Made by a program: the position numbers and the translations under genes
Notes under the pieces: model-generated
Seen by the model: the letters and a program-made list of their open reading frames with translations, nothing else
Databases searched by the model: none
What the model was told of the DNA's origin: nothing
Part shown: piece after piece, positions 13,051 to 62,937 of the stretch
How positions within the stretch are numbered: position 1 is the first letter of the stretch
How the letters are laid out: each line of letters opens with the position of its first letter
Assembly: GCA_041500865.1 (NCBI GenBank)
Contig: JBGQMY010000004.1
Location: 860-64,859 of the forward strand
Source: Candidatus Micrarchaeia archaeon
GTDB taxonomy: Archaea > Micrarchaeota > Micrarchaeia > Anstonellales > J096
Reading direction: 5' to 3'
Length of the DNA: 64,000 nucleotides

Positions 13051-13052
13051 AT

Positions 13053-13084: not shown

Positions 13085-13114
13085 GTCTTTTTTAGCCGGA
13101 AAGCAGCCTTGGCG

Positions 13115-14593: not shown

Positions 14594-14596
14594 ATG

Positions 14597-14628
14597 CCCT
14601 ATATTTGTTAAATAGTGTTTTTAAATGT
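14597..14628 (-). promoter_or_regulatory. leaderless promoter cassette P2, a duplicate of P1
   Basis: ACATTTAAAAACACTATTTAACAAATATAGGG lies immediately upstream of ATG 14593. Confidence 0.7.
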
Positions 14629-14726
14629 ATTTCCTTATGCATCATCCGATGCTGAACCCTGTGCCCTTTGGCAAGCTGCAGCCAACAAAGCCAGAAAACT
14701 TATTAACCCATCAGCAGATACTCGGC

Positions 14727-15194: not shown

Positions 15195-15631
15195 AGCCTG
15201 AACCCCATCCCTTTGGCTACCCCGTTCCTTTCGGAGAACCCGACGCTGGCTTCGATAGCATAGTCGATTTCGCCCTTAGGCGCGTAATGCACGCATCCAT
15301 TGGTCTTGTCGCAGGTCTCCATCATGATTATCTCGGTCACGGTTCCGCCCTTCACGCAAATCAGCTCCAAGGGAAACTTCACGTTCTGCATCCAGAATGA
15401 ATTGTTCAACCTGCCCGCTAGGCCCATCGGAAACACCATACCATAATCGTCAGGCATTGAGCTACGGAACATCATGCCAAGCGTTTTCTTAACGGCATTG
15501 TCCGCAAGCTCGCCGCCGAAGCATTTTTCCCCGAAGCAGAACCTTGCAGGGGTCGTTTTAAGCATGAGGATTACTGCAATAACAAGTATGAAAATGGCAA
15601 GAGCAGCAGCCAACGCTATGTTGTAACTCAT
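15188..15631 (-). CDS. DUF192 (UPF0127) protein with an N-terminal TM anchor
   Basis: The series GMMFRSSMPDDYGMVFPM...FWMQNVKFPLELI...YAIEASVGF fits the DUF192 pattern. It has an ATGA overlap with the upstream ATPase gene. Confidence 0.7.
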   Translation of the reverse strand: MSYNIALAAALAIFILVIAVILMLKTTPARFCFGEKCFGGELADNAVKKTLGMMFRSSMPDDYGMVFPMGLAGRLNNSFWMQNVKFPLELICVKGGTVTEIIMMETCDKTNGCVHYAPKGEIDYAIEASVGFSERNGVAKGMGFRLQ

Positions 15632-17910
15632 GCGGGGCCGGTCTCCCTCTTGTTGGCCTCGATGCCCTCCTTGAGGAGCTTCGGGAACTGCGCATCCCAC
15701 CTTTTCTGGGCCTCGCCGAAGTCAACAATCCCGTTATCGTCCTCAAGCGCGACCATCACCCTGTTGATGAAGTTGTTGCACTTGAGGAAGAAATCCAGCT
15801 GCGTGAGCTCCTTTATGCCGGTCTTTGCCGCGGCGTTGTTTATGTCAGAGAAAATCTTTCCCTTGAAGAACGCCTGCAGGACGTATTGCTCCGGCGGTAT
15901 GCCGGTCAGGTCGCTCTTCCTCTTTATGAGCGGCGGTATGAATTCGAAGCTTAGCTCCTTTGCCATCTTCTTCATGTCAATGCCGGAAAGGTCGGCTGCC
16001 TCGGCCTCCTTGTTTTTCAGGAACAGGCAGTTCAGCACGGAACTTTCCAGCGAGTTGCCCCTTTTGTAGTCAAACGTCTTCACGAACTGCTTGTTCTCCC
16101 TGTCAGACTCGTAGGCGTACCCTATGACCCTGTTCGTCCTGCCCTTCCTGCCGAACTTCACCTTGTTCAGGAAAACGTAACGGTCGGTCGCGAACATGGA
16201 CGCCGCAGGTATGCCGAAGAACAGCTCCAGCCTGTCCTTGATGTCGTCAAGGCTTTCCGCGTGCAGGTTGTACAGCAGGAACACGCCTGGCTGCGTGTTC
16301 AGCAGGTTGATTACGCCCTGCACGGCGCTCCTGCTCCTTATCTCGTTGATTACGAGCGCGGCGTCGCCCATCCTGAGCAGCGCGTTTGCCATAGAAACCA
16401 AGTCCAGCTCCTTGACGTCCTTGCCTTCCACGTCCCCTGCCGCGACCTTCGCCGCGCCTATGTGGAAGCCCCTTTTGCGGAACGTGCGGACCGGGATTTC
16501 CCATATGTCCTGTATCGGGATGATTCTCTTGCTCGGGCCGATTGCGGCAATCTCGGCGGCCGTGAAGGCCGTCTTTCCGCTCCCTTTCACGCCCAGGATT
16601 GCGCCGCTGGCGCCCATGCTCACGGACACGTCGTCATATCCGGCGAAGAACGGGGACATGGACTTGTATGCCAAATACTGCGCGTACGTGAACGGCTCTT
16701 CAGCCAGTATCCTCAGCGCGCCCTGCAGCTCGCCGAACGTCGCAGGCGGCCTTTGCAGGTGGCACCTCAGCGCCTCCCTTTTCATGACCACGTCCGCAAT
16801 CGGGAAGTTCTCGTCGAACTTTGTGCCCTTTTCCGAGAACACCATGTTTTTGAACGCCCTTTCAAGCATCTCGTAGTTGTACCTGTACAAAGACTGCACA
16901 ATCCCGAACTCCCTGCTGTCCATGTATATCGGGCTGTTCTCGCTGTCTATGTAGATGTCCGTGAGGTTGTCCTTGTCCAGCATCAGGTTTTCCAGCGGCG
17001 AGCCCATGCCCACGACCCATGCCGATGCCTCCCTTGCCATTATCAGCGCCTCCCTTGGCGTTATGTCAACGTTGTTCTGGAGCGCCTGGTCCATGAACTT
17101 GGCCTTGTACTCGTTTATCTTCAGCCCGAAAAGTATCGTGTAATCCATTGACGTGAAGTTCTCCTTTATCTGGGAGTCTATCATGTCCTTCAGCATTTTC
17201 TGCAGCGGAGGGGCCAGCCCGTCCAGCACCGGGTTGTCCATCCTGTATATCATGTAGTCCCTTTCAGGTATCTCGAATATCTGGACCTGGACCCCGAACG
17301 GCAGCTCGTATTTCGCCTTCGGGTCTTTCAGGGCAACTGCGTTATCCGGAAGGTCAAGGGAGATTGTGCTTGCGAACAGCAGGCTCTTTGTTCCTACCAA
17401 CGAAAGGAATGCGCTCCTCATGTCGCCCTTGGCCTTGACCAGCTTTATCATCTCGGTGGCTTCAAACCTTTTCAGTATCCCCGCCACCCATCCCTGGAAC
17501 GTCTGCAGGCCCTTCATGAACGCCGCGGTGTCGGGCGTCGCCTCCTTGTAGTCGCTGAGCAGCCTTGCCGCGCTTACGGGGTTCATGTACGCATAATCGA
17601 CGAATTTTTCAAGCAGCGCCTGCCTTTTCCTGTAGTTCGGGTCAGCAGTATGGCCGTATATCTCCTTCTTCATCCTTATTCCTTCAACCTGCGCGATGAC
17701 CTTTGCGTACTCGATGAGCACGCTTGCCTTCTGCGGCGGCAGGATGAACGTGATTTCCTCCTCGTAGTCTATCTCCTTTATCGGCGTGTCTGATATGATG
17801 CTGACAAGGTTCTTCAAATGGTAGTTTATGAATTCCGGAGACCCGAATTCGTACGGGCATTTAGCCAAGTCCACGATTCCCTTCGCGCCCTCTATCCTCA
17901 AGTCGCACAT
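15628..17910 (-). CDS. type II/IV secretion-family ATPase (GspE/PilB/FlaI/VirB11 superfamily) with a long N-terminal extension
   Basis: 760 aa with Walker A GVKGSGKT, a Walker B/Asp-box region ALVINEIRSRSAVQG and a His-box LYNLHAES. Confidence 0.85.
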   Translation of the reverse strand: MCDLRIEGAKGIVDLAKCPYEFGSPEFINYHLKNLVSIISDTPIKEIDYEEEITFILPPQKASVLIEYAKVIAQVEGIRMKKEIYGHTADPNYRKRQALLEKFVDYAYMNPVSAARLLSDYKEATPDTAAFMKGLQTFQGWVAGILKRFEATEMIKLVKAKGDMRSAFLSLVGTKSLLFASTISLDLPDNAVALKDPKAKYELPFGVQVQIFEIPERDYMIYRMDNPVLDGLAPPLQKMLKDMIDSQIKENFTSMDYTILFGLKINEYKAKFMDQALQNNVDITPREALIMAREASAWVVGMGSPLENLMLDKDNLTDIYIDSENSPIYMDSREFGIVQSLYRYNYEMLERAFKNMVFSEKGTKFDENFPIADVVMKREALRCHLQRPPATFGELQGALRILAEEPFTYAQYLAYKSMSPFFAGYDDVSVSMGASGAILGVKGSGKTAFTAAEIAAIGPSKRIIPIQDIWEIPVRTFRKRGFHIGAAKVAAGDVEGKDVKELDLVSMANALLRMGDAALVINEIRSRSAVQGVINLLNTQPGVFLLYNLHAESLDDIKDRLELFFGIPAASMFATDRYVFLNKVKFGRKGRTNRVIGYAYESDRENKQFVKTFDYKRGNSLESSVLNCLFLKNKEAEAADLSGIDMKKMAKELSFEFIPPLIKRKSDLTGIPPEQYVLQAFFKGKIFSDINNAAAKTGIKELTQLDFFLKCNNFINRVMVALEDDNGIVDFGEAQKRWDAQFPKLLKEGIEANKRETGPA

Positions 17911-19944: not shown

Positions 19945-20421
19945 ATGGAGCAGCGGCATAAGGAAAGGAGCCAAAAACCAAAGCTGCGCGAGCGCACAAG
20001 GCAGGTGCTGGCATCGGCTGCGCGGTCAATAAAGAGGGCGTTTGCCGGAAGAAGACTTGACAATGCGTTCTTCAGGGCCGTGCGGAATGGCGACAACGCG
20101 GAGATAAGGCGGCTCATAAAGGCCGGAGCCGACATCGCCGCAAAGGGCGATTTTGGCTGGACAGCCCTGCACTATGCCGCAAACAACGGACATGTCCAAA
20201 CCTGCGCCCTGTTAACAAGAGAATACGCGAAAGCCGGCGGAGACATAAAAGAGCTAATCGCCATAACGGATGCTTTTGGCTGGACAGCCCTGCGCCGTGC
20301 CACAAAATGGAGATATGCCCAAATCGCGCAGTTATTCAAATCCATGCCGCTATTGCAAGGCTGGGTTGGGAAGGAAACGTTCAGCTCGTTCATGGAATCG
20401 TTCGGGGAATGTGTTTCCTAA
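19945..20421 (+). CDS. ankyrin-repeat protein, family member a (C-terminal Cys tail)
   Basis: It has GWTALHYAANNGHVQTCALLTREYAKAGGD and the tail FSSFMESFGECVS. Start moved to MEQRHK, because the ORF-track extension runs through the promoter. Confidence 0.85.
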   Translation: MEQRHKERSQKPKLRERTRQVLASAARSIKRAFAGRRLDNAFFRAVRNGDNAEIRRLIKAGADIAAKGDFGWTALHYAANNGHVQTCALLTREYAKAGGDIKELIAITDAFGWTALRRATKWRYAQIAQLFKSMPLLQGWVGKETFSSFMESFGECVS

Positions 20422-20480: not shown

Positions 20481-23198
20481 ATGGCGAAAAAAACCCTGGA
20501 GCAGGTGAGGGTCAAGGCCCTCATAAGGCAGGTCCAGTCAAACGATTCCGCGCTCGGCGCCATAATAACGTACCTTGCGTGCATCTCCATTCTCTTCGCG
20601 ATATACTTCTATCCCGTCTACCTGATACCGTTCCTTGCGCTGATTCCGGCATTGCTTTCATACAAGTTCCATCCTGGCATCGGGCTTACGGCAACCTGGC
20701 TCATCGCATTGCCGGCATTTGCGTTCCAGAGCGCGGTTTTCGCCTGGGTCGGCTCGATATTCCTTATCGTCGTGCTTTACACTGCTGCCGACCATTGGGC
20801 GACCATATCGCTTGCCACGATAGCGGTGTTCCTGCCTTTTGCGCCGTTCCCGCTCTCGTTCCTGGGGGGCTTCATCTACCTCGTCCTGCTTGTGGGCGGG
20901 ATGTACCTTGGCTCAAAGGAAAGCATGCCGTTCACCGTGACGACAGTATTGCTCATATTATTGGCAAGCGCAACGTGGAACGTGCCGAACTCGGCGCATT
21001 TCCCGCTAAATCCCGCAAGCAATTTCCAGACAAACGACTATCTGCTGCGCGCGACAGACATACCGTTTTATTACTCTGACTTCCTTCCTGCCTACTCCAA
21101 GGCGATATCCAACCTGGTCAACTTCGGGGCGGCAATGAACTTCGGGAACACGCTGGGCGTTTTGTGGCACAACCTGATGGTCATATGCTTCGGCGACACA
21201 GGGCTGATGCAGGCGCTGTCATGGATGGCGGTCATCTGGTCGGCAGTGTACTTCACTGGCAGGCCGCTTGTCCGCCTTCCGATGATGCTGCACAAGAAAG
21301 TGGAAATGTCGTTCCTCTTCCTGCTGCTGATTCCCGTGATTTACACCATTTTCTATGCGCTTGACAACAGCCCGTACCTGATAGAGATGCCGATATACGC
21401 CGTGGCCAGCATACTGGTCGCGCAATGGATGATGAACAACAAGATAATGACGTTCAAGGAGCTTGAGATAAGGAGCCATGAGACAGAGAAAAAGTTCGGG
21501 ACAACTGCGGTGCAGGAGATGTCCCTCAGCACAGACGTGCAGAGCATGGAGGATTTCGCCAACTACGAGGAGACGAAAAAGGAAATTTACAATTCAATAG
21601 TGATTCCGCTGCAGAAGCCGGAAATATCCATCGCATACAATATCAATCCGCCAAAAGGCATCCTGCTTTTCGGGCCCCCGGGAACCGGAAAAACGTTTTT
21701 GATGAAGGCGCTGAGCAAGAAACTGGACTACAACATGCTTTACATAAAGACGTCGGACCTGCTCAGCTCCCTGTACGGCGAAAGCGAGAAGAACGTGAGC
21801 AAGATATTCCAGAATGCGAAAAAGACGGCCCCATGCATACTTTTCTTCGACGAGATAGACGCCATAGGCAAGAAGCGCTCCAGCGAGGACTATGTGACGT
21901 CAAGGGTGCTGGACACCCTGCTGGTCGAGATGGACAACACAATGTCAAAGCCAGGCAAGCCGGTCATATTCGTGGCTGCGACCAACGTGCCCCAGCTGAT
22001 AGACAGGGCGTTCATGAGGCCCGGCAGGATAGACAAGATAATATACATGCCGCTGCCGGACAGGCACGGCAGGGAGGAAATCTTCAAGGTCAAACTGAAG
22101 GGACTTCCGATTGCCGATGACGTTGACCCTGGCAAGCTTGCCGACGAGACGGACAGGTTTTCGGGCGCCGACATAACGCTGGCAGTCCAGGAGGCGAAAG
22201 GAAGGGTGGTTGACAACCTAACTGAAAAGCTCACTGAGGACCAGCCGGCAAAGGGCGAGATAGAGCTTATAACGATGGACGACCTGCTTTCGGCGGCGAA
22301 GTCGATAAAGCCGTCCACGTCGTTTTCGGACCTGGAGGCTTACGAGAAATTCCAGTACGACTTTGAAAGGAAGAGGAAGAAGGAGACCAAGAAGGAGGAA
22401 GGCGCGATTGACTTCAAGGACGTCGTCGGCATGGACGACGTCAAGGAAACGCTCAAGCAGTCGCTTGAGCTTCCGATAAAGCACCCTGAGCTGATAAAGG
22501 AATACAGGATTGAGGTTCCAAAGGGCATACTGCTTTTCGGGCCTCCCGGAACGGGAAAAACCTACCTTGCAAAGGCAGCAGCAGGCGAATTCAAGATACC
22601 CATACTGCTTGTCAGCGGGGCAGACCTGATGAAAAAAGGGCCGTCGGCCGCAGCTGAAGAGCTGAAGACGATATTCAACAGGGCAAGGGAGAACCCGCCG
22701 GCAATAGTGTTCATAGACGAGCTGGAGACAGTGGCGCCCCTCAGGGGCTCTTCAGACATCATAGTCGGCCAGCTGCTCCAGGAGATGGACGGCTTGGCAA
22801 AGAACAGGAACATCATGGTCATAGGCGCAACCAACATGCCGCACATGGTTGACACTGCGCTGCTCAGGCCAGGCAGGTTTGACAAGATAATATACGTCAG
22901 CCCATCGGACCTTGCGGCAAGAAAGGACCTTTTCAAGATGTACATGGCGCCGTTTGAGAAGGGGCTGGACCTTGCGGCGCTCGCCAAGAGCAGCGACGGC
23001 TTCTCGGCCGCGGATGTAAAGTCCGTATGCTCGGAAGTGAAGATAGACGCCGCAAAGGAAAAGATAAGGGGCATGGGCCAGCCGTCCATCACGACGGAAA
23101 AAGTGATGGCGAAGCTGGTCTCAAGGAGGCCGTCAATAACCCAGAACATGCTCAGGGAGTTCGAAAGGTTCATGCAGGAGTATGGCGAAAGAAGGTGA
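20481..23198 (+). CDS. membrane-embedded tandem AAA+ ATPase (CDC48/VCP-like D1-D2 with an N-terminal domain of about 10 TM helices)
   Basis: 905 aa. Residues ~20-330 are strongly hydrophobic and multi-helix. Two AAA modules follow: PPKGILLFGPPGTGKT...LFFDEIDAIG and VPKGILLFGPPGTGKT...VFIDELETV. Confidence 0.85.
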   Translation: MAKKTLEQVRVKALIRQVQSNDSALGAIITYLACISILFAIYFYPVYLIPFLALIPALLSYKFHPGIGLTATWLIALPAFAFQSAVFAWVGSIFLIVVLYTAADHWATISLATIAVFLPFAPFPLSFLGGFIYLVLLVGGMYLGSKESMPFTVTTVLLILLASATWNVPNSAHFPLNPASNFQTNDYLLRATDIPFYYSDFLPAYSKAISNLVNFGAAMNFGNTLGVLWHNLMVICFGDTGLMQALSWMAVIWSAVYFTGRPLVRLPMMLHKKVEMSFLFLLLIPVIYTIFYALDNSPYLIEMPIYAVASILVAQWMMNNKIMTFKELEIRSHETEKKFGTTAVQEMSLSTDVQSMEDFANYEETKKEIYNSIVIPLQKPEISIAYNINPPKGILLFGPPGTGKTFLMKALSKKLDYNMLYIKTSDLLSSLYGESEKNVSKIFQNAKKTAPCILFFDEIDAIGKKRSSEDYVTSRVLDTLLVEMDNTMSKPGKPVIFVAATNVPQLIDRAFMRPGRIDKIIYMPLPDRHGREEIFKVKLKGLPIADDVDPGKLADETDRFSGADITLAVQEAKGRVVDNLTEKLTEDQPAKGEIELITMDDLLSAAKSIKPSTSFSDLEAYEKFQYDFERKRKKETKKEEGAIDFKDVVGMDDVKETLKQSLELPIKHPELIKEYRIEVPKGILLFGPPGTGKTYLAKAAAGEFKIPILLVSGADLMKKGPSAAAEELKTIFNRARENPPAIVFIDELETVAPLRGSSDIIVGQLLQEMDGLAKNRNIMVIGATNMPHMVDTALLRPGRFDKIIYVSPSDLAARKDLFKMYMAPFEKGLDLAALAKSSDGFSAADVKSVCSEVKIDAAKEKIRGMGQPSITTEKVMAKLVSRRPSITQNMLREFERFMQEYGERR

Positions 23199-24636: not shown

Positions 24637-25206
24637 TCAGAACTCTATCTCGTTGCCGCCCCTTCTCTCCGACTCCTCCTCTGCCTTGGCCTCTGCCTCC
24701 AGCTTCTTCATCTTGAGGCGGATGTTCTTGCCGCTGATGTTCACAGGGATGGAGATTGCCGCCTCTATTGGAACGACGGTGTAGATGTTCTTTGCCAAGT
24801 CCACTGCATTGACCTTCGCCTTCTCTCCCTTGAACGGGCCTGATATTATCTCAACGATGTCTCCCGGCTCTATGGCAACCGCGACCTCGGCCTTCTTCTC
24901 CATCATCTTCTTGACGTCCTCAAAGGTCAGGGGCGCGCCCTTTATCATGCCCTTGACGTGCTTTACCCCGTCAATGAGCTTTGCCACGGCATTGTCGTCG
25001 TCTGCCTCCATGACCAGGTATCCCCTTACGTCCTCCTTGAAGAATATGGAATAGACTTTCGCCTTTGTCGCCCTCACCTTCTGGCTCAGCATCATGGCCG
25101 TTATCTTCTCCTGCTTGACCGCTATCCTGACTATGAAGAACTTGTGCTGCGCCGAAGCATCAACAGGCTGCGGCGGCGCCTCTGCCATCTTTTCCATATC
25201 ATCCAC
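24637..25206 (-). CDS. spt5: transcription elongation factor Spt5 (archaeal NusG)
   Basis: It has an NGN domain (FIVRIAVKQEK...VYSIFFKEDVRGYLVMEADD) and a KOW motif GDIVEIISGPFKGEKAKV. The secE-spt5 order is conserved. It appears to use a GTG start. Confidence 0.85.
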   Translation of the reverse strand: MDDMEKMAEAPPQPVDASAQHKFFIVRIAVKQEKITAMMLSQKVRATKAKVYSIFFKEDVRGYLVMEADDDNAVAKLIDGVKHVKGMIKGAPLTFEDVKKMMEKKAEVAVAIEPGDIVEIISGPFKGEKAKVNAVDLAKNIYTVVPIEAAISIPVNISGKNIRLKMKKLEAEAKAEEESERRGGNEIEF

Positions 25207-25382: not shown

Positions 25383-26603
25383 TCACCCTACCTCTTCCAG
25401 CTCAAGCTCGTCAAGCTCGACCGGCTTCAGCGTCATGTCCTGTGCAGGGAACTTGACCCCCGCAAGCACGACCAGCACCTTGAGCGCCGACTTCTTCATC
25501 TCCTTCTCTATCCTTGCGCCGAACTTTATGAGCACGTCCGGAGAAACCCTTTTTGCCGTTTCCTCCACGATATACTGCACTTCCTTGAGCGAGAGGTCCT
25601 CTCCGCCGGTTATGTTAATCAGTACCCTGTTGGCGGATGAGATGTCCACGTCAAGCAAAGGCGAGCTTAGCGCAGTCTCTATAGCTATCCTCGCCCTCTC
25701 TTCCCTGGGCACGTCAACATTCGCCTCCCCGACGCCTATGACCGCATACCCGCCGTCCTTCAGCGCGGTGCTGAGGTCCGCGAAGTCAACATTGACCAGG
25801 CCTTCCTTTGTGACAAGGTCGCTTATGCCCTTGACCGAGCCCGCAAGCACCTCGTCGCAAACCCTGAAAGCAGTGTTCAGCGGCAGGTCAGGAGCTATGG
25901 TGAGCAGCTTGTCGTTCTTTATTATTATCAGCGTGTCCACGCTCCTCCTGAGCTTGTCCAGGCCCTGCAGCGCATTCTGGTATTTGACCTTCCCTTCTGA
26001 CGTGAACGGAAGCGTGACTATGCCTATGGTGAGCGCCTTTGTCTCGCTCTTCGCCATCTTTGCCATGACAGGCAGCGAGCCTGTTCCCGTTCCCCCTCCC
26101 ATCCCGCACGTGAGGAACAGCAGGCTGGCGTCCTTTATGGACTCCTTTATGACTTCTATGGTCTCCTGCGCCGCCTTCTCGCCGCATTCAGGGCTGCTTC
26201 CGCATCCCCTCCCCCTTGTCAGCTGCTTGCCAAGCAGTATCTTCCTGTTCGCCTTTATCTTCAGCAGATGCCTGGCGTCGGTGTTTGACGCTATGAGCGA
26301 TATGCCCGTAACGTTCATCTCGTGGAGCCTGTTCAGCGTGTTGCATCCGCTTCCCCCTGCCCCTATGACGAATATCTTCGGCTCGCTTTCCTCTATGAAC
26401 TTGAGTATGTCCTCCTCGTCGTCGCTCGCGCTGGCCGTCATCCCCTCCGCAACTTCCGCGGCGCTGTATTTCTCTTCCTGCGCTGGCATAGGTGCTGTGA
26501 TGGCTGGCGCCGGCGTTGCAGGGGCTGGGGCCTGCGGCGCAGCGTTCTGCGCTGGCTCTTTAAGCATCTCCTCAGGCTGGGGCTTTGTCTCCTCTCCTTC
26601 CAT
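25383..26603 (-). CDS. ftsZ: cell division protein FtsZ with an N-terminal low-complexity extension of about 75 aa
   Basis: It has VIGAGGSGCNTLNRL and the tubulin signature GMGGGTGTGSLPV. An SD-like GGTGA lies 7 nt before the ATG. Confidence 0.95.
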   Translation of the reverse strand: MEGEETKPQPEEMLKEPAQNAAPQAPAPATPAPAITAPMPAQEEKYSAAEVAEGMTASASDDEEDILKFIEESEPKIFVIGAGGSGCNTLNRLHEMNVTGISLIASNTDARHLLKIKANRKILLGKQLTRGRGCGSSPECGEKAAQETIEVIKESIKDASLLFLTCGMGGGTGTGSLPVMAKMAKSETKALTIGIVTLPFTSEGKVKYQNALQGLDKLRRSVDTLIIIKNDKLLTIAPDLPLNTAFRVCDEVLAGSVKGISDLVTKEGLVNVDFADLSTALKDGGYAVIGVGEANVDVPREERARIAIETALSSPLLDVDISSANRVLINITGGEDLSLKEVQYIVEETAKRVSPDVLIKFGARIEKEMKKSALKVLVVLAGVKFPAQDMTLKPVELDELELEEVG

Positions 26604-27009: not shown

Positions 27010-27256
27010 TTTGTATACACCCCTAATTTTTCTTCTGTTCGCATTTTGCGTTCCCCTCTTTTTAAACTTTGTCCCCGTCAACCCGACAATCCTACGAATA
27101 CAGTTGTTTTTAGTGTTGGTAGCTCGTTGTTTTACGTCGGTTTTCGGTTTTTTTAACGTCGATCCTTTTTCTTTAGAAAAGAAAAAGTCTTCACCCCAAA
27201 AGAAACTACTTTAGGCGCTGCTGCGCCACGACGTGGGATTGCGCCATGCAGCCTGA

Positions 27257-27285
27257 TTTTTAATCCTTTGCCGCACAATGGAATC
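27257..27285 (+). promoter_or_regulatory. ankyrin-family promoter cassette (TTTTTAATCCTTTGCCGCACAATGGAATC)
   Basis: The TATA box starts 29 nt upstream of ATG 27286, and the conserved CTTTGCCGCACAAT box is present. Confidence 0.7.
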
Positions 27286-27759
27286 ATGCTGCAGAAAAGA
27301 ACTCCGGTATTTTCGCCGTTCCTGCACAAGCAGAAGAGCCTGTCCTTAAGGGCTAGGGAGCGCATAGGCGTCTTTTTCTGGGAATTCGGGCGCTATCTGC
27401 AGGACCGCTACGGCACGTTCAACAGCGACCTCCTTGAGGCAGCGGACCATGGGTATGTCGGCGCAGTTAAAGTAACATTGAAGAAAAAGGAGGTCAATAT
27501 AAACACGCGGGACAAGTACGGCAACACTCCGCTGATTCTTGCGGTCCAGGAAAACAACATCAAAGTAGTTAAAGTGCTGATTGGGAACGGGGCGGATGTT
27601 TTCCTGAAGAACAAAAACGGCGTGAGCGCACTGTCGCTTGCGTCCAGCCGCAAGCGCGCAGAGATAGCCGCTCTTCTTGTTGGGTTTTATTTGGAGAGCG
27701 TCCTTGCAGACGGCGCCAAGCCGTTTTACCATCTATTTAGAGACTGCACCGCCGCCTGA
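27286..27759 (+). CDS. ankyrin-repeat protein, member b
   Basis: It has GNTPLILAVQENNIKVVKVLIGNGADV and NGVSALSLASSRKRAEIAALL, with tail FYHLFRDCTAA. Start moved to MLQKRT. Confidence 0.85.
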   Translation: MLQKRTPVFSPFLHKQKSLSLRARERIGVFFWEFGRYLQDRYGTFNSDLLEAADHGYVGAVKVTLKKKEVNINTRDKYGNTPLILAVQENNIKVVKVLIGNGADVFLKNKNGVSALSLASSRKRAEIAALLVGFYLESVLADGAKPFYHLFRDCTAA

Positions 27760-27789
27760 TTTATAACACCTTTGCCATATAAAATGACT
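27760..27789 (+). promoter_or_regulatory. ankyrin-family promoter cassette (TTTATAACACCTTTGCCATATAAAATGACT)
   Basis: The TATA box starts 30 nt upstream of ATG 27790. It begins 1 nt after the stop of member b. Confidence 0.65.
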
Positions 27790-28356
27790 ATGCAAAAGCA
27801 GGAGCCGTTGCTGAAAAGAATCCTCAGGAAGCTAAGGCCAGCCAAGCAAAATCCCCTGCCCAGCGAGAAGCGGTATCTTTCAGCTGTAGACCAATATCTG
27901 GCAGACAGCAGGCTGATGCGTGCCGCAGGAGGAGGCGACATAAGCGAGGCTAGGCGCCTGCTGAAGAAAGGCGCGAACGTAGATGCGAACATAGTTAAGC
28001 CTGACCATGATTACATGACTCCGCTCATGTTTGCCGCACAGAATGGCCACACTGAAATTTGCGCGCTCCTTCTCGAAAATGGCGCAAACATCGAGGCTGT
28101 GGATGACGTCGGCAGGACCGCGCTCGTGATTGCTGCATGGTGGTGCCATCTGGAAATATGCAAGCTTTTGATTGAAAAGGGCGCAAGCATGGCCACAGCA
28201 ACCAACGGCATAAATTTATTTTCATATACCCATGCCGAAAACAAAAAAGAAAAAATCGAATTTTTGTCAGGGCTCATGATAGGAAGGATGGCTGGCAAGG
28301 AAGCCGCCACGGCCTTTCTTTCGGATTTCAAAGAGTGCACAGCCCCTTTCTTTTAG
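27790..28356 (+). CDS. ankyrin-repeat protein, member c
   Basis: It has YMTPLMFAAQNGHTEICALLLENGANIEAVDDVGRTALVIAAWWCHLEICKLLIEKGA and the tail FLSDFKECTAPFF. The start MQKQEP was chosen by the 29-31 nt spacing rule; ATG 27784 is the alternative. Confidence 0.85.
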   Translation: MQKQEPLLKRILRKLRPAKQNPLPSEKRYLSAVDQYLADSRLMRAAGGGDISEARRLLKKGANVDANIVKPDHDYMTPLMFAAQNGHTEICALLLENGANIEAVDDVGRTALVIAAWWCHLEICKLLIEKGASMATATNGINLFSYTHAENKKEKIEFLSGLMIGRMAGKEAATAFLSDFKECTAPFF

Positions 28357-28405: not shown

Positions 28406-28436
28406 TTTTTAACACCTTTGCCGCACCAATCATATA
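28406..28436 (+). promoter_or_regulatory. ankyrin-family promoter cassette (TTTTTAACACCTTTGCCGCACCAATCATATA)
   Basis: The TATA box starts 31 nt upstream of ATG 28437. Confidence 0.7.
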
Positions 28437-29183
28437 ATGGAAAAGCGCAAATGCGGCACCAATGGGGCATTTTCAAAAGCCAAAAAAAAGCCGTTCAGAA
28501 GGATTGCGGAAAGGCTCAAGGAGACAGGCAAAAGGATAACGTCACGCTTGCTGAAGCTTGAATCAGACCCCCCTGATATACTATTCAAGATAATGGAGAC
28601 CAAAAACACGAAGCTGATAGAGGCTGCAGTTGACAGAGACACCGCAAAGATGAAAAAGCTGATAAAGAAAGGAGCTTGCGTCAATACTATGATAGAACTT
28701 GGCAAGGTGTCAGCCCCGCTCATCCATTACTGCGCCATCAATGACGCCTATCCGCAATTGTCTCTCCTGCTGGAGAACGGCGCAGACCCGTACACAAGGG
28801 ACGCGCGCGGCATGACGGCACTCATGCACGCCGCGGGGCACAGCAGTTATAACATATGCTGCGCGCTGATTGCAGACATGCTGACAAAAGGGAAAGACAT
28901 AAACGCGACTGACAACGAGGGCATGACGGCGCTGATGCACGCGGCGACGCACGCAGAGAATGACGTATGCGCGCTGTTCCTGTTGCATGGCGCAGCAGAC
29001 CCGTATGCCAAGGCCAAGGACGGCAGGACAGCCTATATCTTTGCAGGGAACAGCATGACCAGGAAGGCAATCGCGCGCAACGCCCTTGGCCCTGCCTTGG
29101 CAAGCCCCTTTTTGGAACAGATGCTCGGCAAACAGCCAGTCTCTTTCAGGGCCAATTTCCTGATGTGCATCGGCAAGGGCTGA
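28437..29183 (+). CDS. ankyrin-repeat protein, member d
   Basis: It has GMTALMHAAGHSSYNICCALIADMLTKGKDINATDNEGMTALMHAATHAENDVCALFLLHGADP and the tail FRANFLMCIGKG. Confidence 0.85.
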   Translation: MEKRKCGTNGAFSKAKKKPFRRIAERLKETGKRITSRLLKLESDPPDILFKIMETKNTKLIEAAVDRDTAKMKKLIKKGACVNTMIELGKVSAPLIHYCAINDAYPQLSLLLENGADPYTRDARGMTALMHAAGHSSYNICCALIADMLTKGKDINATDNEGMTALMHAATHAENDVCALFLLHGAADPYAKAKDGRTAYIFAGNSMTRKAIARNALGPALASPFLEQMLGKQPVSFRANFLMCIGKG

Positions 29184-29228: not shown

Positions 29229-29627
29229 ATGGCGTTGAGCGGGGTCGAGTTTCTGATTGCAATGGACAGGGCGGACAACCCGTCCATGCGCATTCCATTC
29301 AGGAAAGGCACGGAGAGATACAAGCGCATAATGGAATTCTCGGACACCATCATCCGCGAAAGGAGGCAAAGCCAGCTGGACCAGGATTTCCTGTACATGA
29401 TGGAATTGGGCAACGTCAAGGAGGCGGAAAGGCTGTTCTGGAAAGGAGCGGACGTCAACGCAAGGCAGGACGACGACCTTGCCTGGGGCGCAGGAGCATG
29501 GGCTGCCGACAGGAAGGGGGCAGATGCGATGCTCAATAGGATAACGCGCCTGCAAAGCCTGAGGTTCCTTGGAAAAAACGTTTCGTTGCAGTTTTACCGT
29601 TCATTCAGGAAATGCCTCGCCACTTAA
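29229..29627 (+). CDS. degenerate ankyrin-family member e (repeats eroded, promoter and C-terminal tail retained)
   Basis: Only one ANK-like helix-loop remains (LGNVKEAERLFWKGADVNARQDDD). The tail FYRSFRKCLAT and the family promoter are conserved. Confidence 0.6.
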   Translation: MALSGVEFLIAMDRADNPSMRIPFRKGTERYKRIMEFSDTIIRERRQSQLDQDFLYMMELGNVKEAERLFWKGADVNARQDDDLAWGAGAWAADRKGADAMLNRITRLQSLRFLGKNVSLQFYRSFRKCLAT

Positions 29628-29657
29628 TTTATAATGCCTTTGCCGCACAATAAAGAT
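29628..29657 (+). promoter_or_regulatory. ankyrin-family promoter cassette (TTTATAATGCCTTTGCCGCACAATAAAGAT)
   Basis: The TATA box starts 30 nt upstream of ATG 29658. The ORF-track ATG at 29634 lies inside the conserved box. Confidence 0.7.
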
Positions 29658-30398
29658 ATGCGGAAAAGGCAGCTCCAAAGGGATGCACTGGCAGGGAAAA
29701 CGGCCAAACCAAAAGCAGACATCGCGAAAAGCGAGAATCCTGCATTGTCCGAAACGGAGCAGGGGCGGCTCAATGGCGAACTCCTCCGCATTGTAGACGA
29801 TAGCTTCAAGGCTGACGCTAAAAAAGCGGAAGAGGTAGAGCGGCTCGTCAACGCAGGCGCGGACATCACAGCAAAGACGCCTGCCAACTGGACAATCCTG
29901 CACTGCGCCGCAGCCTATGGCGACATCGAAACCTGCGCATTGATTATAGGGAAATACGCGGAATCGCACAGAAGCATAAAGGATCTGATTGGCGCAAAGG
30001 CGAATGGCGATGATACGGCCCTGAAAGAGGCCGCAGTCAATGGACATGCCAAAGCCTGCGCATTGCTTATCAGGGAATACGCAAAAGCAGGCGGTGACGC
30101 AACTGAACTTATCACCGCAAAGGACGAATACGGCCAAACAGTCCTGCATAAAGCCGCGAACATCGGAAACACTGATATCTGCATTCTCCTTATGGAGGAA
30201 TACGCAAAAGCAGGCGGTGACGCAACGGACCTCATCTATGCAGAGGACTACAAAGGCAAGATACCCGTGCAGTCTGCTGTAAAATGGGGACAAACCAAAA
30301 CCAAGCAGTTCCTTGAGTCACTCGAAAAGCTTGGAGCAGCCATGGGGAACAAAACATTCAATTCGTTCATGAAATCCTTCAGCGAGTGCATCGCCTGA
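29658..30398 (+). CDS. ankyrin-repeat protein, member f (41-residue EYAKAGGD-type repeats)
   Basis: It has WTILHCAAAYGDIETCALII, DTALKEAAVNGHAKACALLIREYAKAGGD and GQTVLHKAANIGNTDICILLMEEYAKAGGD, with tail FNSFMKSFSECIA. Confidence 0.85.
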   Translation: MRKRQLQRDALAGKTAKPKADIAKSENPALSETEQGRLNGELLRIVDDSFKADAKKAEEVERLVNAGADITAKTPANWTILHCAAAYGDIETCALIIGKYAESHRSIKDLIGAKANGDDTALKEAAVNGHAKACALLIREYAKAGGDATELITAKDEYGQTVLHKAANIGNTDICILLMEEYAKAGGDATDLIYAEDYKGKIPVQSAVKWGQTKTKQFLESLEKLGAAMGNKTFNSFMKSFSECIA

Positions 30399-30449: not shown

Positions 30450-31013
30450 ATGGGCAAAACCACGAAAATGCTGCTTGCGGAAATCAAAAGCGAAGGCAAA
30501 AGGCCAAATAAGATATTATTGGTGGACATCCTGCCGACCTCGGGCCCCAGATGGCACCAGAAGGTGCTGGAGCACCTTAATAATGCTTTAGTGGAGGCGT
30601 TGGAGCACCAAAGGAAGGAAAAATACAGTTCAAATTATTTCAGGAAATACAATCCAAGCTATTTCAAGCGGCTGTTGCTGGCGGGCGCAAGCCCGAACGC
30701 AAAAAGCACTAGCGGCGGCGGCACCAGGGCCCTGCAATATGCCGTGGAGTCCGGAGACATCAAAATCTGCGAGCTGCTGGTTGAAAACGGCGCAAACCCC
30801 AACCTGAAGGACAATATTGGGCTGACTTCGCTGCATAGTGCCGTATACCATAAGAAAACCAAAATATGCAAGATTCTGGTTGAAAACGGCGCAGACGTGG
30901 ACGCAAAGGACAAGAACGGCGAAACGCCTCTGGAAATGGCCAAACGGCACAAACACACTGACATCGTAAAGATTCTCAAAGCCGCAAGGGCGAAAAAGGC
31001 AGGCAGCACATGA
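30450..31013 (+). CDS. ankyrin-repeat protein, subtype 2 (member g, no Cys tail)
   Basis: It has TRALQYAVESGDIKICELLVENGANPNLKDNIGLTSLHSAVYHKKTKICKILVENGADVDAKDKNGETPLEMA. The N-terminal DILPTSGPRWHQKVLEHLNNAL module is shared with member h. Confidence 0.85.
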   Translation: MGKTTKMLLAEIKSEGKRPNKILLVDILPTSGPRWHQKVLEHLNNALVEALEHQRKEKYSSNYFRKYNPSYFKRLLLAGASPNAKSTSGGGTRALQYAVESGDIKICELLVENGANPNLKDNIGLTSLHSAVYHKKTKICKILVENGADVDAKDKNGETPLEMAKRHKHTDIVKILKAARAKKAGST

Positions 31014-31525
31014 ACAAAAACGCAGGGTTGTTCGCTGAAACCAAAAAAGGCGGGGACAGGAGACAAAACAAGATGGCGGCAGACATCCTGCCAAGCGAAA
31101 TGTTCAAATGGCATCCCAAGGTGCAGGCGCACCTCAACGATGCGCTGCTGGACGCATTTGAAACGGCAAGGGAAAAGGAATACGGCCTGAATTATTTCAA
31201 GAGGATTCTGCTGGCAGGCGCAAACCCGAATGCAAAAAACATGAGCGGGCAAAGGCCCCTGGGCCATGCCGCAAAGGCAGGAAACATTCAGCTCTGCGCG
31301 CTTCTTTTGAAGAATGGCGCAAACCCCAACCTGAAGGACAACCTTGGATTCAGGCCTTTGCATTGGGCGGCATTCTGCAACAGGCCCAACGTCTGCGCCC
31401 TGCTTCTGGTGTCAGGCGCGGATGCCGATGCGACGGACAACGCAGGCGATACGCCCATGGACGTAGCAAAGCGGCGAGGCCATGCCACAATCATGGAGAT
31501 TCTGAAGGCCGCAAAGAAAAACTGA
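31010..31525 (+). CDS. ankyrin-repeat protein, subtype 2 (member h), translationally coupled to g
   Basis: It has an ATGA overlap with member g and contains RPLGHAAKAGNIQLCALLLKNGANPNLKDNLGFRPLHWAAFCNRPNVCALLLVSGADADATDNAGDTPMDVA. Confidence 0.85.
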   Translation: MNKNAGLFAETKKGGDRRQNKMAADILPSEMFKWHPKVQAHLNDALLDAFETAREKEYGLNYFKRILLAGANPNAKNMSGQRPLGHAAKAGNIQLCALLLKNGANPNLKDNLGFRPLHWAAFCNRPNVCALLLVSGADADATDNAGDTPMDVAKRRGHATIMEILKAAKKN

Positions 31526-31560: not shown

Positions 31561-31589
31561 TTTATAATATCCTTGCTGCACAATAAAGC
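31561..31589 (+). promoter_or_regulatory. ankyrin-family promoter cassette (TTTATAATATCCTTGCTGCACAATAAAGC)
   Basis: The TATA box starts 29 nt upstream of ATG 31590. Confidence 0.7.
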
Positions 31590-32036
31590 ATGCAGGAAAG
31601 GAAGCAAGGAAAAATAGGGCAGGCATTCGCCAAGTCAAAAAATACAAAAAGGCACGTCAGCAAAAAAGAGCTGGAATATCTCAGCAAGGCGCTTCTCGAC
31701 GCCGTATGGTATGAAAACAAAGCAGGTATAGTGCGGCTCATAAGGAAAGGGGCTGACATAACTGCAAAGTACGGTGAATTTAGGGAGACCCCTTTGCAAA
31801 GCGCCGCAGGGGACGGATACACCAGTGTCTGCGCCCTGCTGATATCGGAATGCATAAATTCAGGCAAAGACATAATCAGATTCATCAACTCAAAAGACAA
31901 AGACGGCGACACAGCAATGAAACTTGCCGCAAAGAAGGGGCATGTTCAAACCGTGGACTTCTTCAAATCAATCAAATGGCTTGCGTATGCAACCGGAAGC
32001 GAATTCATGAAATCCTTCAGCAAGTGCATCGCCTAG
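31590..32036 (+). CDS. ankyrin-repeat protein, member i
   Basis: It has ETPLQSAAGDGYTSVCALLISECINSGKD and DGDTAMKLAAKKGHVQTV, with tail EFMKSFSKCIA. Confidence 0.8.
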   Translation: MQERKQGKIGQAFAKSKNTKRHVSKKELEYLSKALLDAVWYENKAGIVRLIRKGADITAKYGEFRETPLQSAAGDGYTSVCALLISECINSGKDIIRFINSKDKDGDTAMKLAAKKGHVQTVDFFKSIKWLAYATGSEFMKSFSKCIA

Positions 32037-57626: not shown

Positions 57627-57630
57627 GGCG

Positions 57631-58892: not shown

Positions 58893-59528
58893 ATGCAGGA
58901 AAAGAGTAAACCCAAAGAGAATGCGCCAACAGGTAAATTGGCATCAAAAATGGACATCAAGCCAAGTGAGAAGCATATATTATCTAAACAAAGGCAGGAT
59001 TGGCTCAATAATAAGCTTATCGATGCCGCAAAACGGGGCTATGATGACAAGTTAATCCGGCTCATCAAAAAAGGCGCAAACGTCAACGCCAAGGACAATG
59101 ACGAACTGACAGCGCTTATGCATGCCGCAAGGGTCGGGAGCATAGAAACCTGCAAAATTCTCATTGAGCATAAAGCAAAAATTGATATGAGGAACAGGAA
59201 TGGCGATACAGCGCTTATTCATGCTGCATTAAACGGAGAGACTGAAATCTGTGAACTCCTGCTTGAGCATAAAGCCAATATTGATGCAAAAGACACTGAT
59301 GGCATAACAGTGCTTATGCATGCCGCAAGGGGCGGGAGCATTGAAACCTGTAAATTCCTGCTTGAGCATAATGCCTATATTGGGGTAAAGTCCAAAGACG
59401 GAAAAACAGCATTCATGTGGGCTATATGGCATCAACACGAAGAAACAGCAAAATTCCTGAAGCTTTATTCTATAAAAAAGATTCTGGGCAAGGCATTTCT
59501 TTCCAGATTTGACGAATGCATCGCCTAA
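58893..59528 (+). CDS. ankyrin-repeat protein, member j (canonical 33-residue repeats plus Cys tail)
   Basis: It has ELTALMHAARVGSIETCKILIEHKAKIDMRNRNGDTALIHAALNGETEICELLLEHKANIDAKDTDGITVLMHAARGGSIETCKFLLEHNA and the tail FLSRFDECIA. Confidence 0.9.
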   Translation: MQEKSKPKENAPTGKLASKMDIKPSEKHILSKQRQDWLNNKLIDAAKRGYDDKLIRLIKKGANVNAKDNDELTALMHAARVGSIETCKILIEHKAKIDMRNRNGDTALIHAALNGETEICELLLEHKANIDAKDTDGITVLMHAARGGSIETCKFLLEHNAYIGVKSKDGKTAFMWAIWHQHEETAKFLKLYSIKKILGKAFLSRFDECIA

Positions 59529-62337: not shown

Positions 62338-62937
62338 ATGCAGAAAAGTAAGCGGCTCCCAAGGAATGCACAGGCAAAGGAACCGATTAAGTTCAAGGCT
62401 AGCATCATGCCAAGCGGGAAGCTGGCATTATCGGCAGAAGAGCAGAGTAGACTCAACGATGAGCTTTTTGCCAACGCATTAAATGGTAACAATGCCAATG
62501 TGACGCGGTTCCTCAAAGCAGGCGCAGACATCAAAGCAAAGGGCAATGATGGCCAGACAGTCCTGCACTATGCCGCATGCTTTGGACACACGGACGTTTG
62601 CGCACTGCTTATACAGGAATACGCAAAAGCCGACGGAGATGTAAAGCAGCTTATAACCGCAAAGGACACGGAAGGCCTGACAGTCCTGCATTATGCCGCA
62701 GCCAATATCGACACCAGAACCTGCGCACTGCTGATAAAGGAATACGCAAAAGCAGGTGGGGATATAAAGGGAATAATCAAAGCAAAGAACAATGCAGGCG
62801 AGACAGCCCATGGTTTTGCCGTAACTTGGCAACACCCTCAAACCGCACGGTTCCTTCTCGAATCCGGGGTTCGTGCGCTCATCGGAAAGGAATGCGGGAA
62901 ACTATTCGTCTCGTTGTTCAGGGAATGCATAGGCTAG
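62338..62937 (+). CDS. ankyrin-repeat protein, member k (41-residue EYAKAGGD-type repeats)
   Basis: It has GQTVLHYAACFGHTDVCALLIQEYAKADGDVKQLITAKDTEGLTVLHYAAANIDTRTCALLIKEYAKAGGD and the tail LFVSLFRECIG. Start moved to MQKSKR. Confidence 0.85.
   Translation: MQKSKRLPRNAQAKEPIKFKASIMPSGKLALSAEEQSRLNDELFANALNGNNANVTRFLKAGADIKAKGNDGQTVLHYAACFGHTDVCALLIQEYAKADGDVKQLITAKDTEGLTVLHYAAANIDTRTCALLIKEYAKAGGDIKGIIKAKNNAGETAHGFAVTWQHPQTARFLLESGVRALIGKECGKLFVSLFRECIG

What the first reader, a model, noticed from the sequence alone, without database searches (positions are those of the whole stretch)
30354..30398. Family-specific extreme C-terminal tail GK..F..F..F.EC[IVTL][AGS] with an invariant Cys 2-4 residues from the end
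Nine ANK proteins end in the same short module: a ...GKETFSSFMESFGECVS, b ...GAKPFYHLFRDCTAA, c ...GKEAATAFLSDFKECTAPFF, d ...GKQPVSFRANFLMCIGKG, e ...GKNVSLQFYRSFRKCLAT, f ...GNKTFNSFMKSFSECIA, i ...GSEFMKSFSKCIA, j ...GKAFLSRFDECIA and k ...GKECGKLFVSLFRECIG. The Phe spacing (i, i+3/4, i+7) would form an amphipathic helix with an aromatic face, ending in an invariant Cys almost at the carboxyl end. Two readings seem possible. It could be a membrane-targeting helix of the MinD/FtsA-MTS type. It could instead be a Cys-based C-terminal modification or sorting signal. CTAA and CLAT even fit the CaaX form, and Legionella AnkB is an ANK effector that uses a CaaX box. I know of no described archaeal system using such a tail. 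The coordinates mark the example in member f.
Basis: partly seen in the sequence, partly recalled or inferred. Interest (0 to 1): 0.75.

Follow-up and report, generated by a model that had tools for sequence, protein, structure and literature searches.

The report
Conserved Cys-bearing end-helix of Micrarchaeota ankyrin proteins
A multi-copy family of small ankyrin-repeat proteins, found only in Micrarchaeota (tiny symbiotic archaea) as far as records are named, ends in one conserved helix with a never-substituted cysteine; it is real and undescribed, looks like a built-in end-cap rather than a membrane anchor or lipidation box, and its function is untested.

Summary
Nine + strand genes in the window end in ..F..SF(M)..F.(E/D)C(I/V/L/T)(A/S/G)(x), and 30354-30398 encodes TFNSFMKSFSECIA*. 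Eight of the nine are Pfam ankyrin (ANK) proteins.

It is not just recent duplication. A 32-position tail profile found 72 cluster representatives (E<=1e-3) among 1.84 billion proteins. Every match ends within three residues of the C-terminus, and every full-length carrier is a small ANK protein. The few source names or record titles all say Micrarchaeota. Across 110 distinct tails, Cys and Phe(-7) never change, whereas a buried framework Cys in the repeats is replaced in 10% of cases.

AlphaFold2 models of two members give the tail as a confident helix (pLDDT 82-92). It follows an extended last ANK helix after a one-residue break. The tail is amphipathic, with Cys on the hydrophobic face, and net acidic (mean -1.7).

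- MinD/FtsA-type membrane helix: unlikely, since those are +3 to +5.
- Strict CaaX: not met. Only 73% have three residues after Cys, orthologues differ (5 vs 2), and a2 is small.
- No Pfam, NCBIfam or PDB match covers the tail, and no neighbouring gene recurs across more than two genomes.

Best reading: a family-specific C-terminal cap helix, possibly also a constant docking surface. Interest is moderate.

The parts
29658..30398 (+). Member f, ANK protein of 246 aa. Tail (Cys-12 to stop) at 30351-30398, ending ..GNKTFNSFMKSFSECIA.
   Evidence: AlphaFold2 model: tail helix H231-245, pLDDT 92/82.
19945..20421 (+). Member a, ANK protein of 158 aa. Tail at 20374-20421, ending ..GKETFSSFMESFGECVS.
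   Evidence: The same product is P0041.
27286..27759 (+). Member b, ANK protein. Tail at 27709-27759, ending ..GAKPFYHLFRDCTAA.
   Evidence: Orthologue at L015 1712-2194.
27790..28356 (+). Member c, ANK protein. Tail at 28300-28356, ending ..GKEAATAFLSDFKECTAPFF (five residues after Cys).
   Evidence: Its L015 orthologue ends ..FISDFRECTA, with two residues after Cys.
28437..29183 (+). Member d, ANK protein of 248 aa. Tail at 29130-29183, ending ..GKQPVSFRANFLMCIGKG.
29229..29627 (+). Member e, a degenerate paralogue with no Pfam ANK hit. Tail at 29577-29627, ending ..GKNVSLQFYRSFRKCLAT.
   Evidence: Gene called as 132 aa. The orthologue pair, aligned from the ORF start 29211, is under purifying selection.
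31590..32036 (+). Member i, ANK protein of 148 aa. Tail at 31989-32036, ending ..GSEFMKSFSKCIA.
   Evidence: AlphaFold2 model: tail helix H137-147, pLDDT 91/85.
58893..59528 (+). Member j, ANK protein. Tail at 59481-59528, ending ..GKAFLSRFDECIA.
62338..62937 (+). Member k, ANK protein of 199 aa. Tail at 62890-62937, ending ..GKECGKLFVSLFRECIG.
   Evidence: The same product is P0024.
30450..31525 (+). Paralogues g (30450-31013) and h (31010-31525). They share the N-terminal leader but lack the tail, and overlap by 4 nt.
   Evidence: The L015 orthologues are also tail-less, with dN/dS about 0.4.

Best explanation
The tail is the last helix of a conserved module of about 28 residues, consensus ..SIEKL....MGKETFNSFMKSFSECIAA. 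In the models the final ANK helix runs on for about two extra turns, and a one-residue break, usually at Gly, separates it from the tail helix.

Most likely mechanism (inferred): the helix caps the open end of the repeat stack. Its hydrophobic stripe, F(-10), F(-7), M(-6), F(-3), C(0) and I/V(+1), would pack on the last repeat. Its polar, acidic side would face solvent.

The module belongs to one lineage-specific, multi-copy family of small ANK proteins. The few named records are all Micrarchaeota. These proteins also share a disordered basic N-terminal leader (MQERKPL...), while the repeats between the two ends vary.

What is shown or predicted here:
- The module's conservation, position and restriction to this family.
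- That it is helical.
- Its charge.

What is inferred:
- That its face packs against the last repeat. No coordinates or error maps were available.
- That the capped end may also be a constant surface recognised by a common partner. This would explain why F(-7) and Cys are more conserved than any repeat framework residue.
For: 1. AlphaFold2 models of two members, f and i, give the tail as a helix with pLDDT 92/82 and 91/85. It directly follows a 17-residue last helix after a one-residue break.
2. The tail-only profile finds 72 cluster representatives. Every match ends within three residues of the C-terminus. Every full-length carrier is an ANK protein and no other Pfam family occurs.
3. The only invariant columns in full-length family alignments are F(-7) and Cys, plus F(-3) in one of the three.
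4. On an ideal helical wheel, Cys lies on the same face as the Phe residues.
5. The strongest covarying pairs link the preceding helix to the start of the tail helix (positions -20, -15, -10). This fits helix-helix packing, though it partly reflects two subtypes.
6. The family already uses a buried Cys as a repeat framework residue, in 157 of 174 repeats. A packing role for a Cys is therefore in character.
7. No gene family other than ANK recurs next to tail genes across more than two genomes, so no candidate modifying enzyme emerged from 25 sequence stretches.
Against: - Caps are usually the least conserved part of ANK proteins. Here the cap holds the most conserved residues.
- The tail Cys is unchanged in 110 of 110 tails, while the buried framework Cys is replaced by I/L/V/M/F/A in 10% of repeats.
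- Tail-less relatives exist. These are g/h and their orthologues (dN/dS about 0.4), plus four tandem genes in L021 and one in L007 that stop right after ..AAFLKSME. The repeats can evidently do without the tail.
- I could not inspect model coordinates or predicted aligned error. Burial of the Cys is therefore not shown.
Confidence: 0.4

Rival explanations
1. Constant docking, sorting or oligomerisation handle. The helix presents its aromatic/Cys stripe to a common partner. That partner could be a translocation or turnover machine, a host protein, or other family members, with [E/D]-Cys bridging a metal or a disulfide. The variable repeats would pick different targets. This is analogous in logic to ANK plus SOCS-box proteins or ANK plus PRANC proteins.
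For: - Both termini are conserved around a diversified ANK middle, with paralogues only 18-41% identical.
- Cys and F(-7) are invariant beyond framework level.
- E/D precedes Cys in 86% of tails.
- Tail-less paralogues show the module is separable.
- The family is expanded in tandem arrays in several related genomes and metagenome contigs, as effector-like families often are.
Against: - No partner was identified, and no neighbouring gene recurs across more than two genomes.
- The module never occurs on any other protein type.
- The high intramolecular confidence in the models suggests the face is already occupied.
- The tail matches no Pfam model at all, so it is not a recognisable F-box, PRANC or SOCS box.
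Confidence: 0.25
2. Cys-directed lipidation or processing signal, CaaX-like. The Cys is prenylated or otherwise lipidated, and perhaps the last residues are trimmed, attaching the protein to a membrane.
For: - The Cys is invariant.
- 80 of 110 tails have exactly three residues after Cys. Position +1 is I/V/L/T in 93% and the last residue is mostly A/Q/G/S.
- Archaea have Rce1 homologues of unknown natural substrate. The M. maripaludis Rce1 structure is reviewed in PMC5874806.
- Thioether lipidation of Cys does exist in archaea (PMC12462473).
Against: - 27% of tails have 2, 4, 5, 6 or 9 residues after Cys, and five of the nine window members have two.
- An orthologue pair differs, five against two.
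- Position a2 is A/S/G in 88% rather than aliphatic.
- A conserved structured helix with an acidic residue at -1 is not a CaaX feature.
- The known archaeal lipidation uses an N-terminal signal peptide and a lipobox, [LVI][ASTVI][GAS]C. The tail has F-x-[E/D]-C and the proteins show no hydrophobic N-terminal stretch of the signal-peptide kind (by eye).
- No prenyltransferase, CPBP protease or ICMT was seen in the window or in the annotated flanks.
- Known Micrarchaeota hosts are archaea, not eukaryotes (PMC8975820).
Confidence: 0.1
3. MinD/FtsA-type membrane-targeting amphipathic helix that binds the membrane directly.
For: The tail is C-terminal and amphipathic, with a Phe-rich face. Its muH is 0.39 on average and 0.56 in f, comparable to the FtsA helix at 0.57.
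Against: - Net charge averages -1.7 including the carboxylate, and 96 of 110 tails are negative. The MinD and FtsA helices score +3 to +5.
- Archaeal membranes are anionic (general knowledge).
- The helix follows the last ANK helix after a single-residue break instead of sitting on a flexible linker, and it is modelled with high confidence.
Confidence: 0.05

Closest known systems
C-terminal capping units of ankyrin-repeat proteins (natural caps, DARPin C-caps)
   Same: A terminal helical element that follows the last repeat and could shield the stack. Foldseek places the f model among DARPins and ANK proteins.
   Different: This is an extra helix after an extended last helix, not a polar-surfaced full repeat. 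Its residues are the most conserved in the protein, including an invariant Cys. No PDB sequence matches the tail profile (best E = 2).
Legionella AnkB and other bacterial effectors with a C-terminal CaaX box
   Same: An ANK protein of a host-dependent microbe with a Cys close to the C-terminus. The commonest spacing is Cys plus three residues.
   Different: The spacing is not fixed and a2 is small. A conserved helix precedes the Cys. There is no F-box. Known hosts of the lineage are archaea without a known protein farnesyltransferase.
ANK proteins with a small C-terminal adaptor box (ASB proteins with SOCS box; poxvirus and Orientia ANK proteins with PRANC/F-box-like domains)
   Same: The architecture is the same: variable ANK repeats followed by a short conserved helical box at the extreme C-terminus. 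This suggests a 'variable binder plus constant handle' logic.
   Different: There is no sequence relation, since the tail matches no Pfam model. The tail is half the length of these boxes. Their cullin, Skp1 and Elongin partners are eukaryotic.
MinD/FtsA membrane-targeting sequences
   Same: A C-terminal amphipathic helix.
   Different: The tail is acidic rather than strongly cationic, follows the domain without a flexible linker, and carries an invariant Cys.
Archaeal lipobox lipoproteins (AliA/AliB pathway)
   Same: Cys is the lipidated residue in archaea (PMC12462473).
   Different: The lipobox lies after an N-terminal Sec or Tat signal peptide and has a small residue at -1. Here the Cys is C-terminal, is preceded by Glu or Asp, and there is no signal peptide.

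Membership tests
Ankyrin-repeat proteins (Pfam Ank clan) | Significant matches to the Ank, Ank_2 or Ank_4 models, and an ANK solenoid fold | tested here: met
   Eight of nine window members match above the Pfam cut-offs. Of the other carriers, 41 of 46 match; four of the five that do not are fragments of 41-56 aa. The f model matches DARPins at Foldseek E about 1e-8. Member e has no hit.
CaaX box (prenylation signal) | Cys exactly fourth from the C-terminus | tested here: not met
   80 of 110 tails comply. The others have 2 (20 tails), 4 (3), 5 (4), 6 (2) or 9 (1) residues after Cys. In the window only b and e comply. The orthologues of c differ, five against two.
CaaX box (prenylation signal) | Aliphatic a1 and a2, with X chosen from the prenyltransferase-accepted set | tested here: inconclusive
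   a1 is I/V/L/T in 93%. a2 is A/S/G in 88%, which is small rather than aliphatic. X is A/Q/G/S/T in most. Non-canonical motifs such as CASQ are farnesylated in yeast (general knowledge).
CaaX box (prenylation signal) | A protein prenyltransferase available in the organism or its host | not testable with these tools
   None was seen in the 64-kb window or in the annotated flanks. No whole genome was available.
MinD/FtsA-type membrane-targeting sequence | Amphipathic helix at the C-terminus | tested here: met
   muH is 0.39 on average and 0.56 for f. AlphaFold2 models it as a helix.
MinD/FtsA-type membrane-targeting sequence | Net positive charge for binding anionic lipids | tested here: not met
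   The mean net charge is -1.7, and only 3 of 110 tails are positive. The reference sequences score +3 to +5.
PRANC / F-box / SOCS-box C-terminal adaptor domains | Match to the corresponding Pfam models | tested here: not met
   The tail sequences have no Pfam match at all at E<=10. Whole proteins hit only the Ank families.
Archaeal lipobox lipoproteins | N-terminal Sec or Tat signal peptide followed by [LVI][ASTVI][GAS]C | tested here: not met
   The N-terminus is a basic, disordered leader (pLDDT below 55 over the first 20 residues), with no hydrophobic stretch on reading the sequences. No signal-peptide predictor was run. The residues before Cys are F-x-[E/D]. The motif definition is from PMC12462473.
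Archaeosortase / rhombosortase C-terminal sorting signals (PGF-CTERM, GlyGly-CTERM) | C-terminal transmembrane helix plus a basic tail | tested here: not met
   The tail has mean hydrophobicity 0.16 and alternates polar and hydrophobic residues along a helix of 11-15 residues. It is too short and too polar to span a membrane.

The most novel reading that the evidence does not exclude
The tail is a native archaeal C-terminal Cys-directed modification or sorting signal. The modification could be S-lipidation, with or without trimming of the last two or three residues. It would mark a whole family of variable ANK proteins of Micrarchaeota for membrane attachment or hand-over to the host. It would also give the first natural substrates for a CaaX-like pathway in archaea.
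Probability: 0.1. Interest if true: 0.85.

Novelty: new variant of a known kind. Interest (0 to 1): 0.45.

Why it matters
Micrarchaeota and other DPANN archaea live on other archaea, and almost nothing is known about the proteins that mediate this. This window spends 11 genes in 64 kb on one ANK family with a variable middle and two constant ends. Related genomes and metagenome contigs carry similar tandem arrays.

The constant C-terminal helix, with its never-substituted Cys, gives three practical things:
- a precise sequence signature for finding the family;
- a natural handle for pull-downs;
- a single residue (Cys to Ser) whose mutation can separate a purely structural role from a chemical one.

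If the Cys proves to be modified or partner-bound, that would be a new trafficking or lipidation route in archaea. If not, the finding is an unusual but ordinary cap of a lineage-specific ANK family.

Tried and rejected
Searches that led nowhere:
1. The word-indexed search with a tail-only alignment (A3) gave 16 candidates and none scored. The exhaustive HMM search replaced it.
2. The word-indexed search with the 47-aa N-terminal leader found no candidate. Whether the leader occurs on non-ANK proteins remains untested.
3. The search for related loci with the broad tail alignment had no sufficiently conserved stretch. A narrower alignment (A5) worked, but as an exact-pattern scan it returned only 5 genome and 10 metagenome loci.
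4. Pfam on the tail and the leader alone gave nothing at E<=10. NCBIfam gave only sub-threshold generic ANK similarity to Legionella Ank effector models and to MzaA, none covering the tail.
5. The PDB sequence search with the tail profile gave one chance hit at E = 2.
6. Neighbourhood clustering of 360 ORFs from 25 sequence stretches found nothing that recurs across more than two genomes, apart from synteny between near-identical contigs. PADLOC on a 4-gene cluster that flanks ANK genes in two loci gave only marginal hits.
7. dN/dS for the tail alone uses too few codons to be meaningful.
8. Mutual information mainly separated two tail subtypes..MGKETF.. and ..TGNAF...
9. Literature searches found no description of this family or tail.

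Readings considered and rejected:
- An ssrA-like 'LAA' degron. The terminal AA occurs in only about a quarter of tails, whereas the conserved residues lie upstream.
- A SOCS BC-box, [STP]LxxxCxxx[VLI]. The register does not fit.
- A link to the adjacent Cdc48-like ATPase, the cysteine desulfurase/NifU pair or the UbiA gene. None of these adjacencies was seen at any related locus examined.

Full report
**1. What is in the window**

The window is archaeal core chromosome. It carries:
- a ribosomal-protein operon from 32106 (L3, L4, L23, L2, S19, L22 and S3), with the downstream ORFs to about 46109 read by eye as the rest of the operon with SecY and adenylate kinase (no family search was run on them);
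- FtsZ at 25383-26603 (-) and Spt5 at 24637-25206 (-);
- a double-AAA ATPase of Cdc48 type at 20481-23198;
- cysteine desulfurase and NifU at 57246-58812 (-);
- a UbiA prenyltransferase at 62971-63861.

Scattered through it are eleven small ankyrin-repeat genes on the + strand.

The marked coordinates 30354-30398 translate to TFNSFMKSFSECIA*.

The true starts lie at internal ATGs a few bases downstream of a conserved TATA-like element. For f this gives 29658-30398, which matches a public gene call exactly. The database products P0041, P0024 and P0089 equal members a, k and i from those starts.

Eight of the nine are Pfam ANK proteins. Member e is a degenerate paralogue without a Pfam hit, but its orthologue pair has dN/dS of 0.17-0.33. 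Two further paralogues, g and h (30450-31525), share the N-terminal region but lack the tail.

**2. Not chance, and not just recent duplication**

A loose regex hits 10 of 225 long ORFs, against 0.92 expected. The paralogues are only 18-41% identical overall.

A search with f returned 48 relatives. Forty-six of them carry the same tail, down to about 30% identity.

A 32-position profile of the tail alone was scored against 1.84 billion cluster representatives. It found 72 proteins at E<=1e-3, and in every one the match ends within three residues of the C-terminus. Of the 46 that were new, 41 match Pfam Ank_2 and no other family appears. Four of the five without a match are fragments of 41-56 aa. 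So there is no non-ANK carrier.

The taxonomic evidence is thin but consistent:
- The only source name that gives an organism is 'Candidatus Micrarchaeota archaeon'.
- An exact-pattern scan of 185,579 species-representative genomes hit two species, both Micrarchaeota MAGs, one of them from Lac Pavin sediment.

Related genomes and metagenome contigs carry tandem arrays of two to seven such genes. One metagenome contig (L015) holds a syntenic orthologous array at 69-81% identity between orthologue pairs (78% for f).

**3. Anatomy of the tail**

Anchored on the Cys, 110 distinct tails give this picture:

| Position | Residues |
|---|---|
| -15 | M/L/I |
| -14 | G (52%) |
| -13, -12, -11 | K, E, T |
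| -10 | F (35%) |
| -7 | F (100%) |
| -6 | M/L/I |
| -3 | F (95%; otherwise Y or L) |
| -1 | E/D (86%) |
| 0 | C (100%) |
| +1 | I/V/L/T (93%) |
| +2 | A/S/G (88%) |
| +3 | A/Q/G/S, or absent |

That set was selected for a near-terminal Cys and for F at -7 or F/Y/L at -3, so these invariances are partly by construction. Two selection-free checks support them:
- In full-length family alignments, F(-7) and Cys are invariant in all three, joined only by F(-3) in one.
- Relatives collected without reference to the tail show substitutions at F(-7) and F(-3) (V or L) but never at Cys.

As a control, the buried framework Cys of the repeats (T-C-A-L-L-I) is Cys in 157 of 174 repeats. It is I/L/V/M/F/A in the rest. 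The tail Cys is therefore under tighter constraint than a buried core Cys of the same proteins.

The number of residues after the Cys is 3 in 80 tails, 2 in 20, and 4-9 in 10. It differs between the orthologues of c, CTAPFF against CTA.

**4. Structure**

| Member | Overall pLDDT | Last ANK helix | Tail helix | Tail pLDDT |
|---|---|---|---|---|
| f | 90.4 | 213-229 | 231-245 | 92 / 82 |
| i | 89.1 | 119-135 | 137-147 | 91 / 85 |

In both AlphaFold2 models one residue separates the two helices. The first 20-30 residues are disordered, and the fold otherwise matches DARPins.

On an ideal helical wheel, F(-10), F(-7), F(-3), Cys and the +1 residue share one face. The hydrophobic moment is 0.39-0.56. 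Net charge averages -1.7 including the carboxylate.

Coordinates and error maps were not available to me. Packing of the tail helix against the last repeat, and burial of the Cys, are therefore inferred and not shown.

**5.

*MinD/FtsA-type membrane helix.* The amphipathicity is there, but the charge has the wrong sign, since reference helices score +3 to +5. The helix also follows the last ANK helix after a single-residue break rather than a flexible tether.

*CaaX.* The modal spacing and the aliphatic +1 residue are suggestive. Against it:
- 27% of tails, and seven of the nine window members, break the spacing.
- Position a2 is small.
- A conserved helix with Glu at -1 is not part of a CaaX signal.
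- No prenyltransferase, CPBP protease or ICMT appears in the window or the annotated flanks.
- The only cultured Micrarchaeota have archaeal hosts (PMC8975820).

The one established archaeal Cys lipidation uses an N-terminal signal peptide and a lipobox (PMC12462473). These proteins have neither. Archaeal Rce1 homologues of unknown substrate exist (PMC5874806), so a native pathway cannot be excluded.

**6. Best explanation and what remains odd**

The only positive structural evidence points to a built-in C-terminal cap helix that is specific to this family (confidence 0.4).

Two facts do not sit easily with a purely structural role:
- Its key residues are more conserved than any repeat framework residue.
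- Tail-less relatives are maintained under purifying selection. These are g/h and their orthologues, plus four tandem genes in L021 and one in L007 that stop right after ..AAFLKSME.

Add the conserved disordered leader and the diversified repeats, and the pattern is 'variable binder with constant ends'. I therefore rate a constant docking, sorting or oligomerisation handle as the main rival (0.25). Cys lipidation follows at 0.1 and direct membrane binding at 0.05.

No partner could be identified. Neighbourhood clustering over 25 sequence stretches found no gene family recurring across more than two genomes.

**7. Novelty**

No Pfam, NCBIfam or PDB entry covers the tail. Literature searches found no description of the family.

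It is an undescribed C-terminal module on a known kind of protein. I rate it a new variant of a known kind, of moderate interest (0.45). The most novel reading not excluded is a native archaeal C-terminal Cys modification or sorting signal. I give that about 0.1 probability, and it would be of high interest if true.

Noticed in passing
window 27256-27278, 27760-27782, 28406-28428, 29628-29650, 31561-31583, 58863-58885; also 9633-9655(-), 52037-52059, 55612-55634: There is a conserved promoter-like element, TTT(T/A)TAA-N4-CTTTGCCGCACAA, with its TATA part about 30-35 nt upstream of the ATG. The pattern has 9 matches against 0.55 expected. It precedes every ANK paralogue except h, which overlaps g by 4 nt; for a, e, g and k this is by eye in the upstream sequences. 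The spacing implies leaderless or very short-leader mRNAs. Three other genes carry a looser version, so it may be the organism's general promoter shape.
   Followed up: partly
window 29658-29750 (f) and the first ~40 codons of a, b, c, i, j, k, g, h: The family has a conserved basic N-terminal leader (MQERKPL...KADILPSEKPALS..EQ.RLN) that AlphaFold2 predicts to be disordered. About 80% of family members share its start, and so do the tail-less paralogues g and h. It has no Pfam match. A search for non-ANK carriers failed for technical reasons.
   Followed up: partly
window 29950-30260 (f), and all family members: The repeats carry a family-specific insertion, 'EYAKAGGD(V/I)KELI', in place of the usual 'GADVNAKD' loop. 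It is modelled as an extra mini-helix between repeats (H107-111, H148-152 and H189-193 in f). The framework position in helix 2 is Cys in 90% of repeats.
   Followed up: partly
L002 2253-9192 (-) and L011 1724-8617 (-): A conserved 4-gene cluster lies directly flanked by tail-bearing ANK genes at two loci from different assemblies. Its products are about 1125 aa, about 120 aa, about 875 aa (with a faint AAA_22 hit) and about 175 aa. The two copies are 38-52% identical. Pfam gives nothing else, PADLOC gives only marginal hits, and the cluster is absent from the window.
   Followed up: partly
L013 8517-9404, L014 359-1246, L007 8218-9135: A Fic-domain gene (PF02661 in L013 and L014; the L007 copy assigned by BLAST clustering) lies directly upstream of ANK tandem arrays at loci from two distinct sources. 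It recalls Fic-plus-ANK effectors such as Legionella AnkX.
   Followed up: no
L021 545-3070; L007 9188-9799; window 30450-31525: Natural tail-less variants exist. Four tandem genes in L021 and one in L007 stop right after '..AAFLKSME..'. Paralogues g and h end in a basic '..ILKAARAKKAGST' and '..ILKAAKKN', and these endings are conserved in the L015 orthologues.
   Followed up: yes
window 6823-17910: Five large ORFs (617, 310, 755, 492 and 760 aa) have no Pfam family. Part of this stretch, 8001-12000, has 41% GC against 49-55% in the other 4-kb blocks. The only hint is a marginal PADLOC 'oligonucleotide cyclase' hit for 8692-9624. This may be a foreign or lineage-specific island.
   Followed up: partly
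window 20481-23198, 57246-58812, 62971-63861: Members a, j and k sit next to a double-AAA Cdc48-type ATPase, a cysteine desulfurase/NifU pair and a UbiA prenyltransferase respectively. None of these adjacencies was seen at any related locus examined, so I treat them as coincidental.
   Followed up: partly
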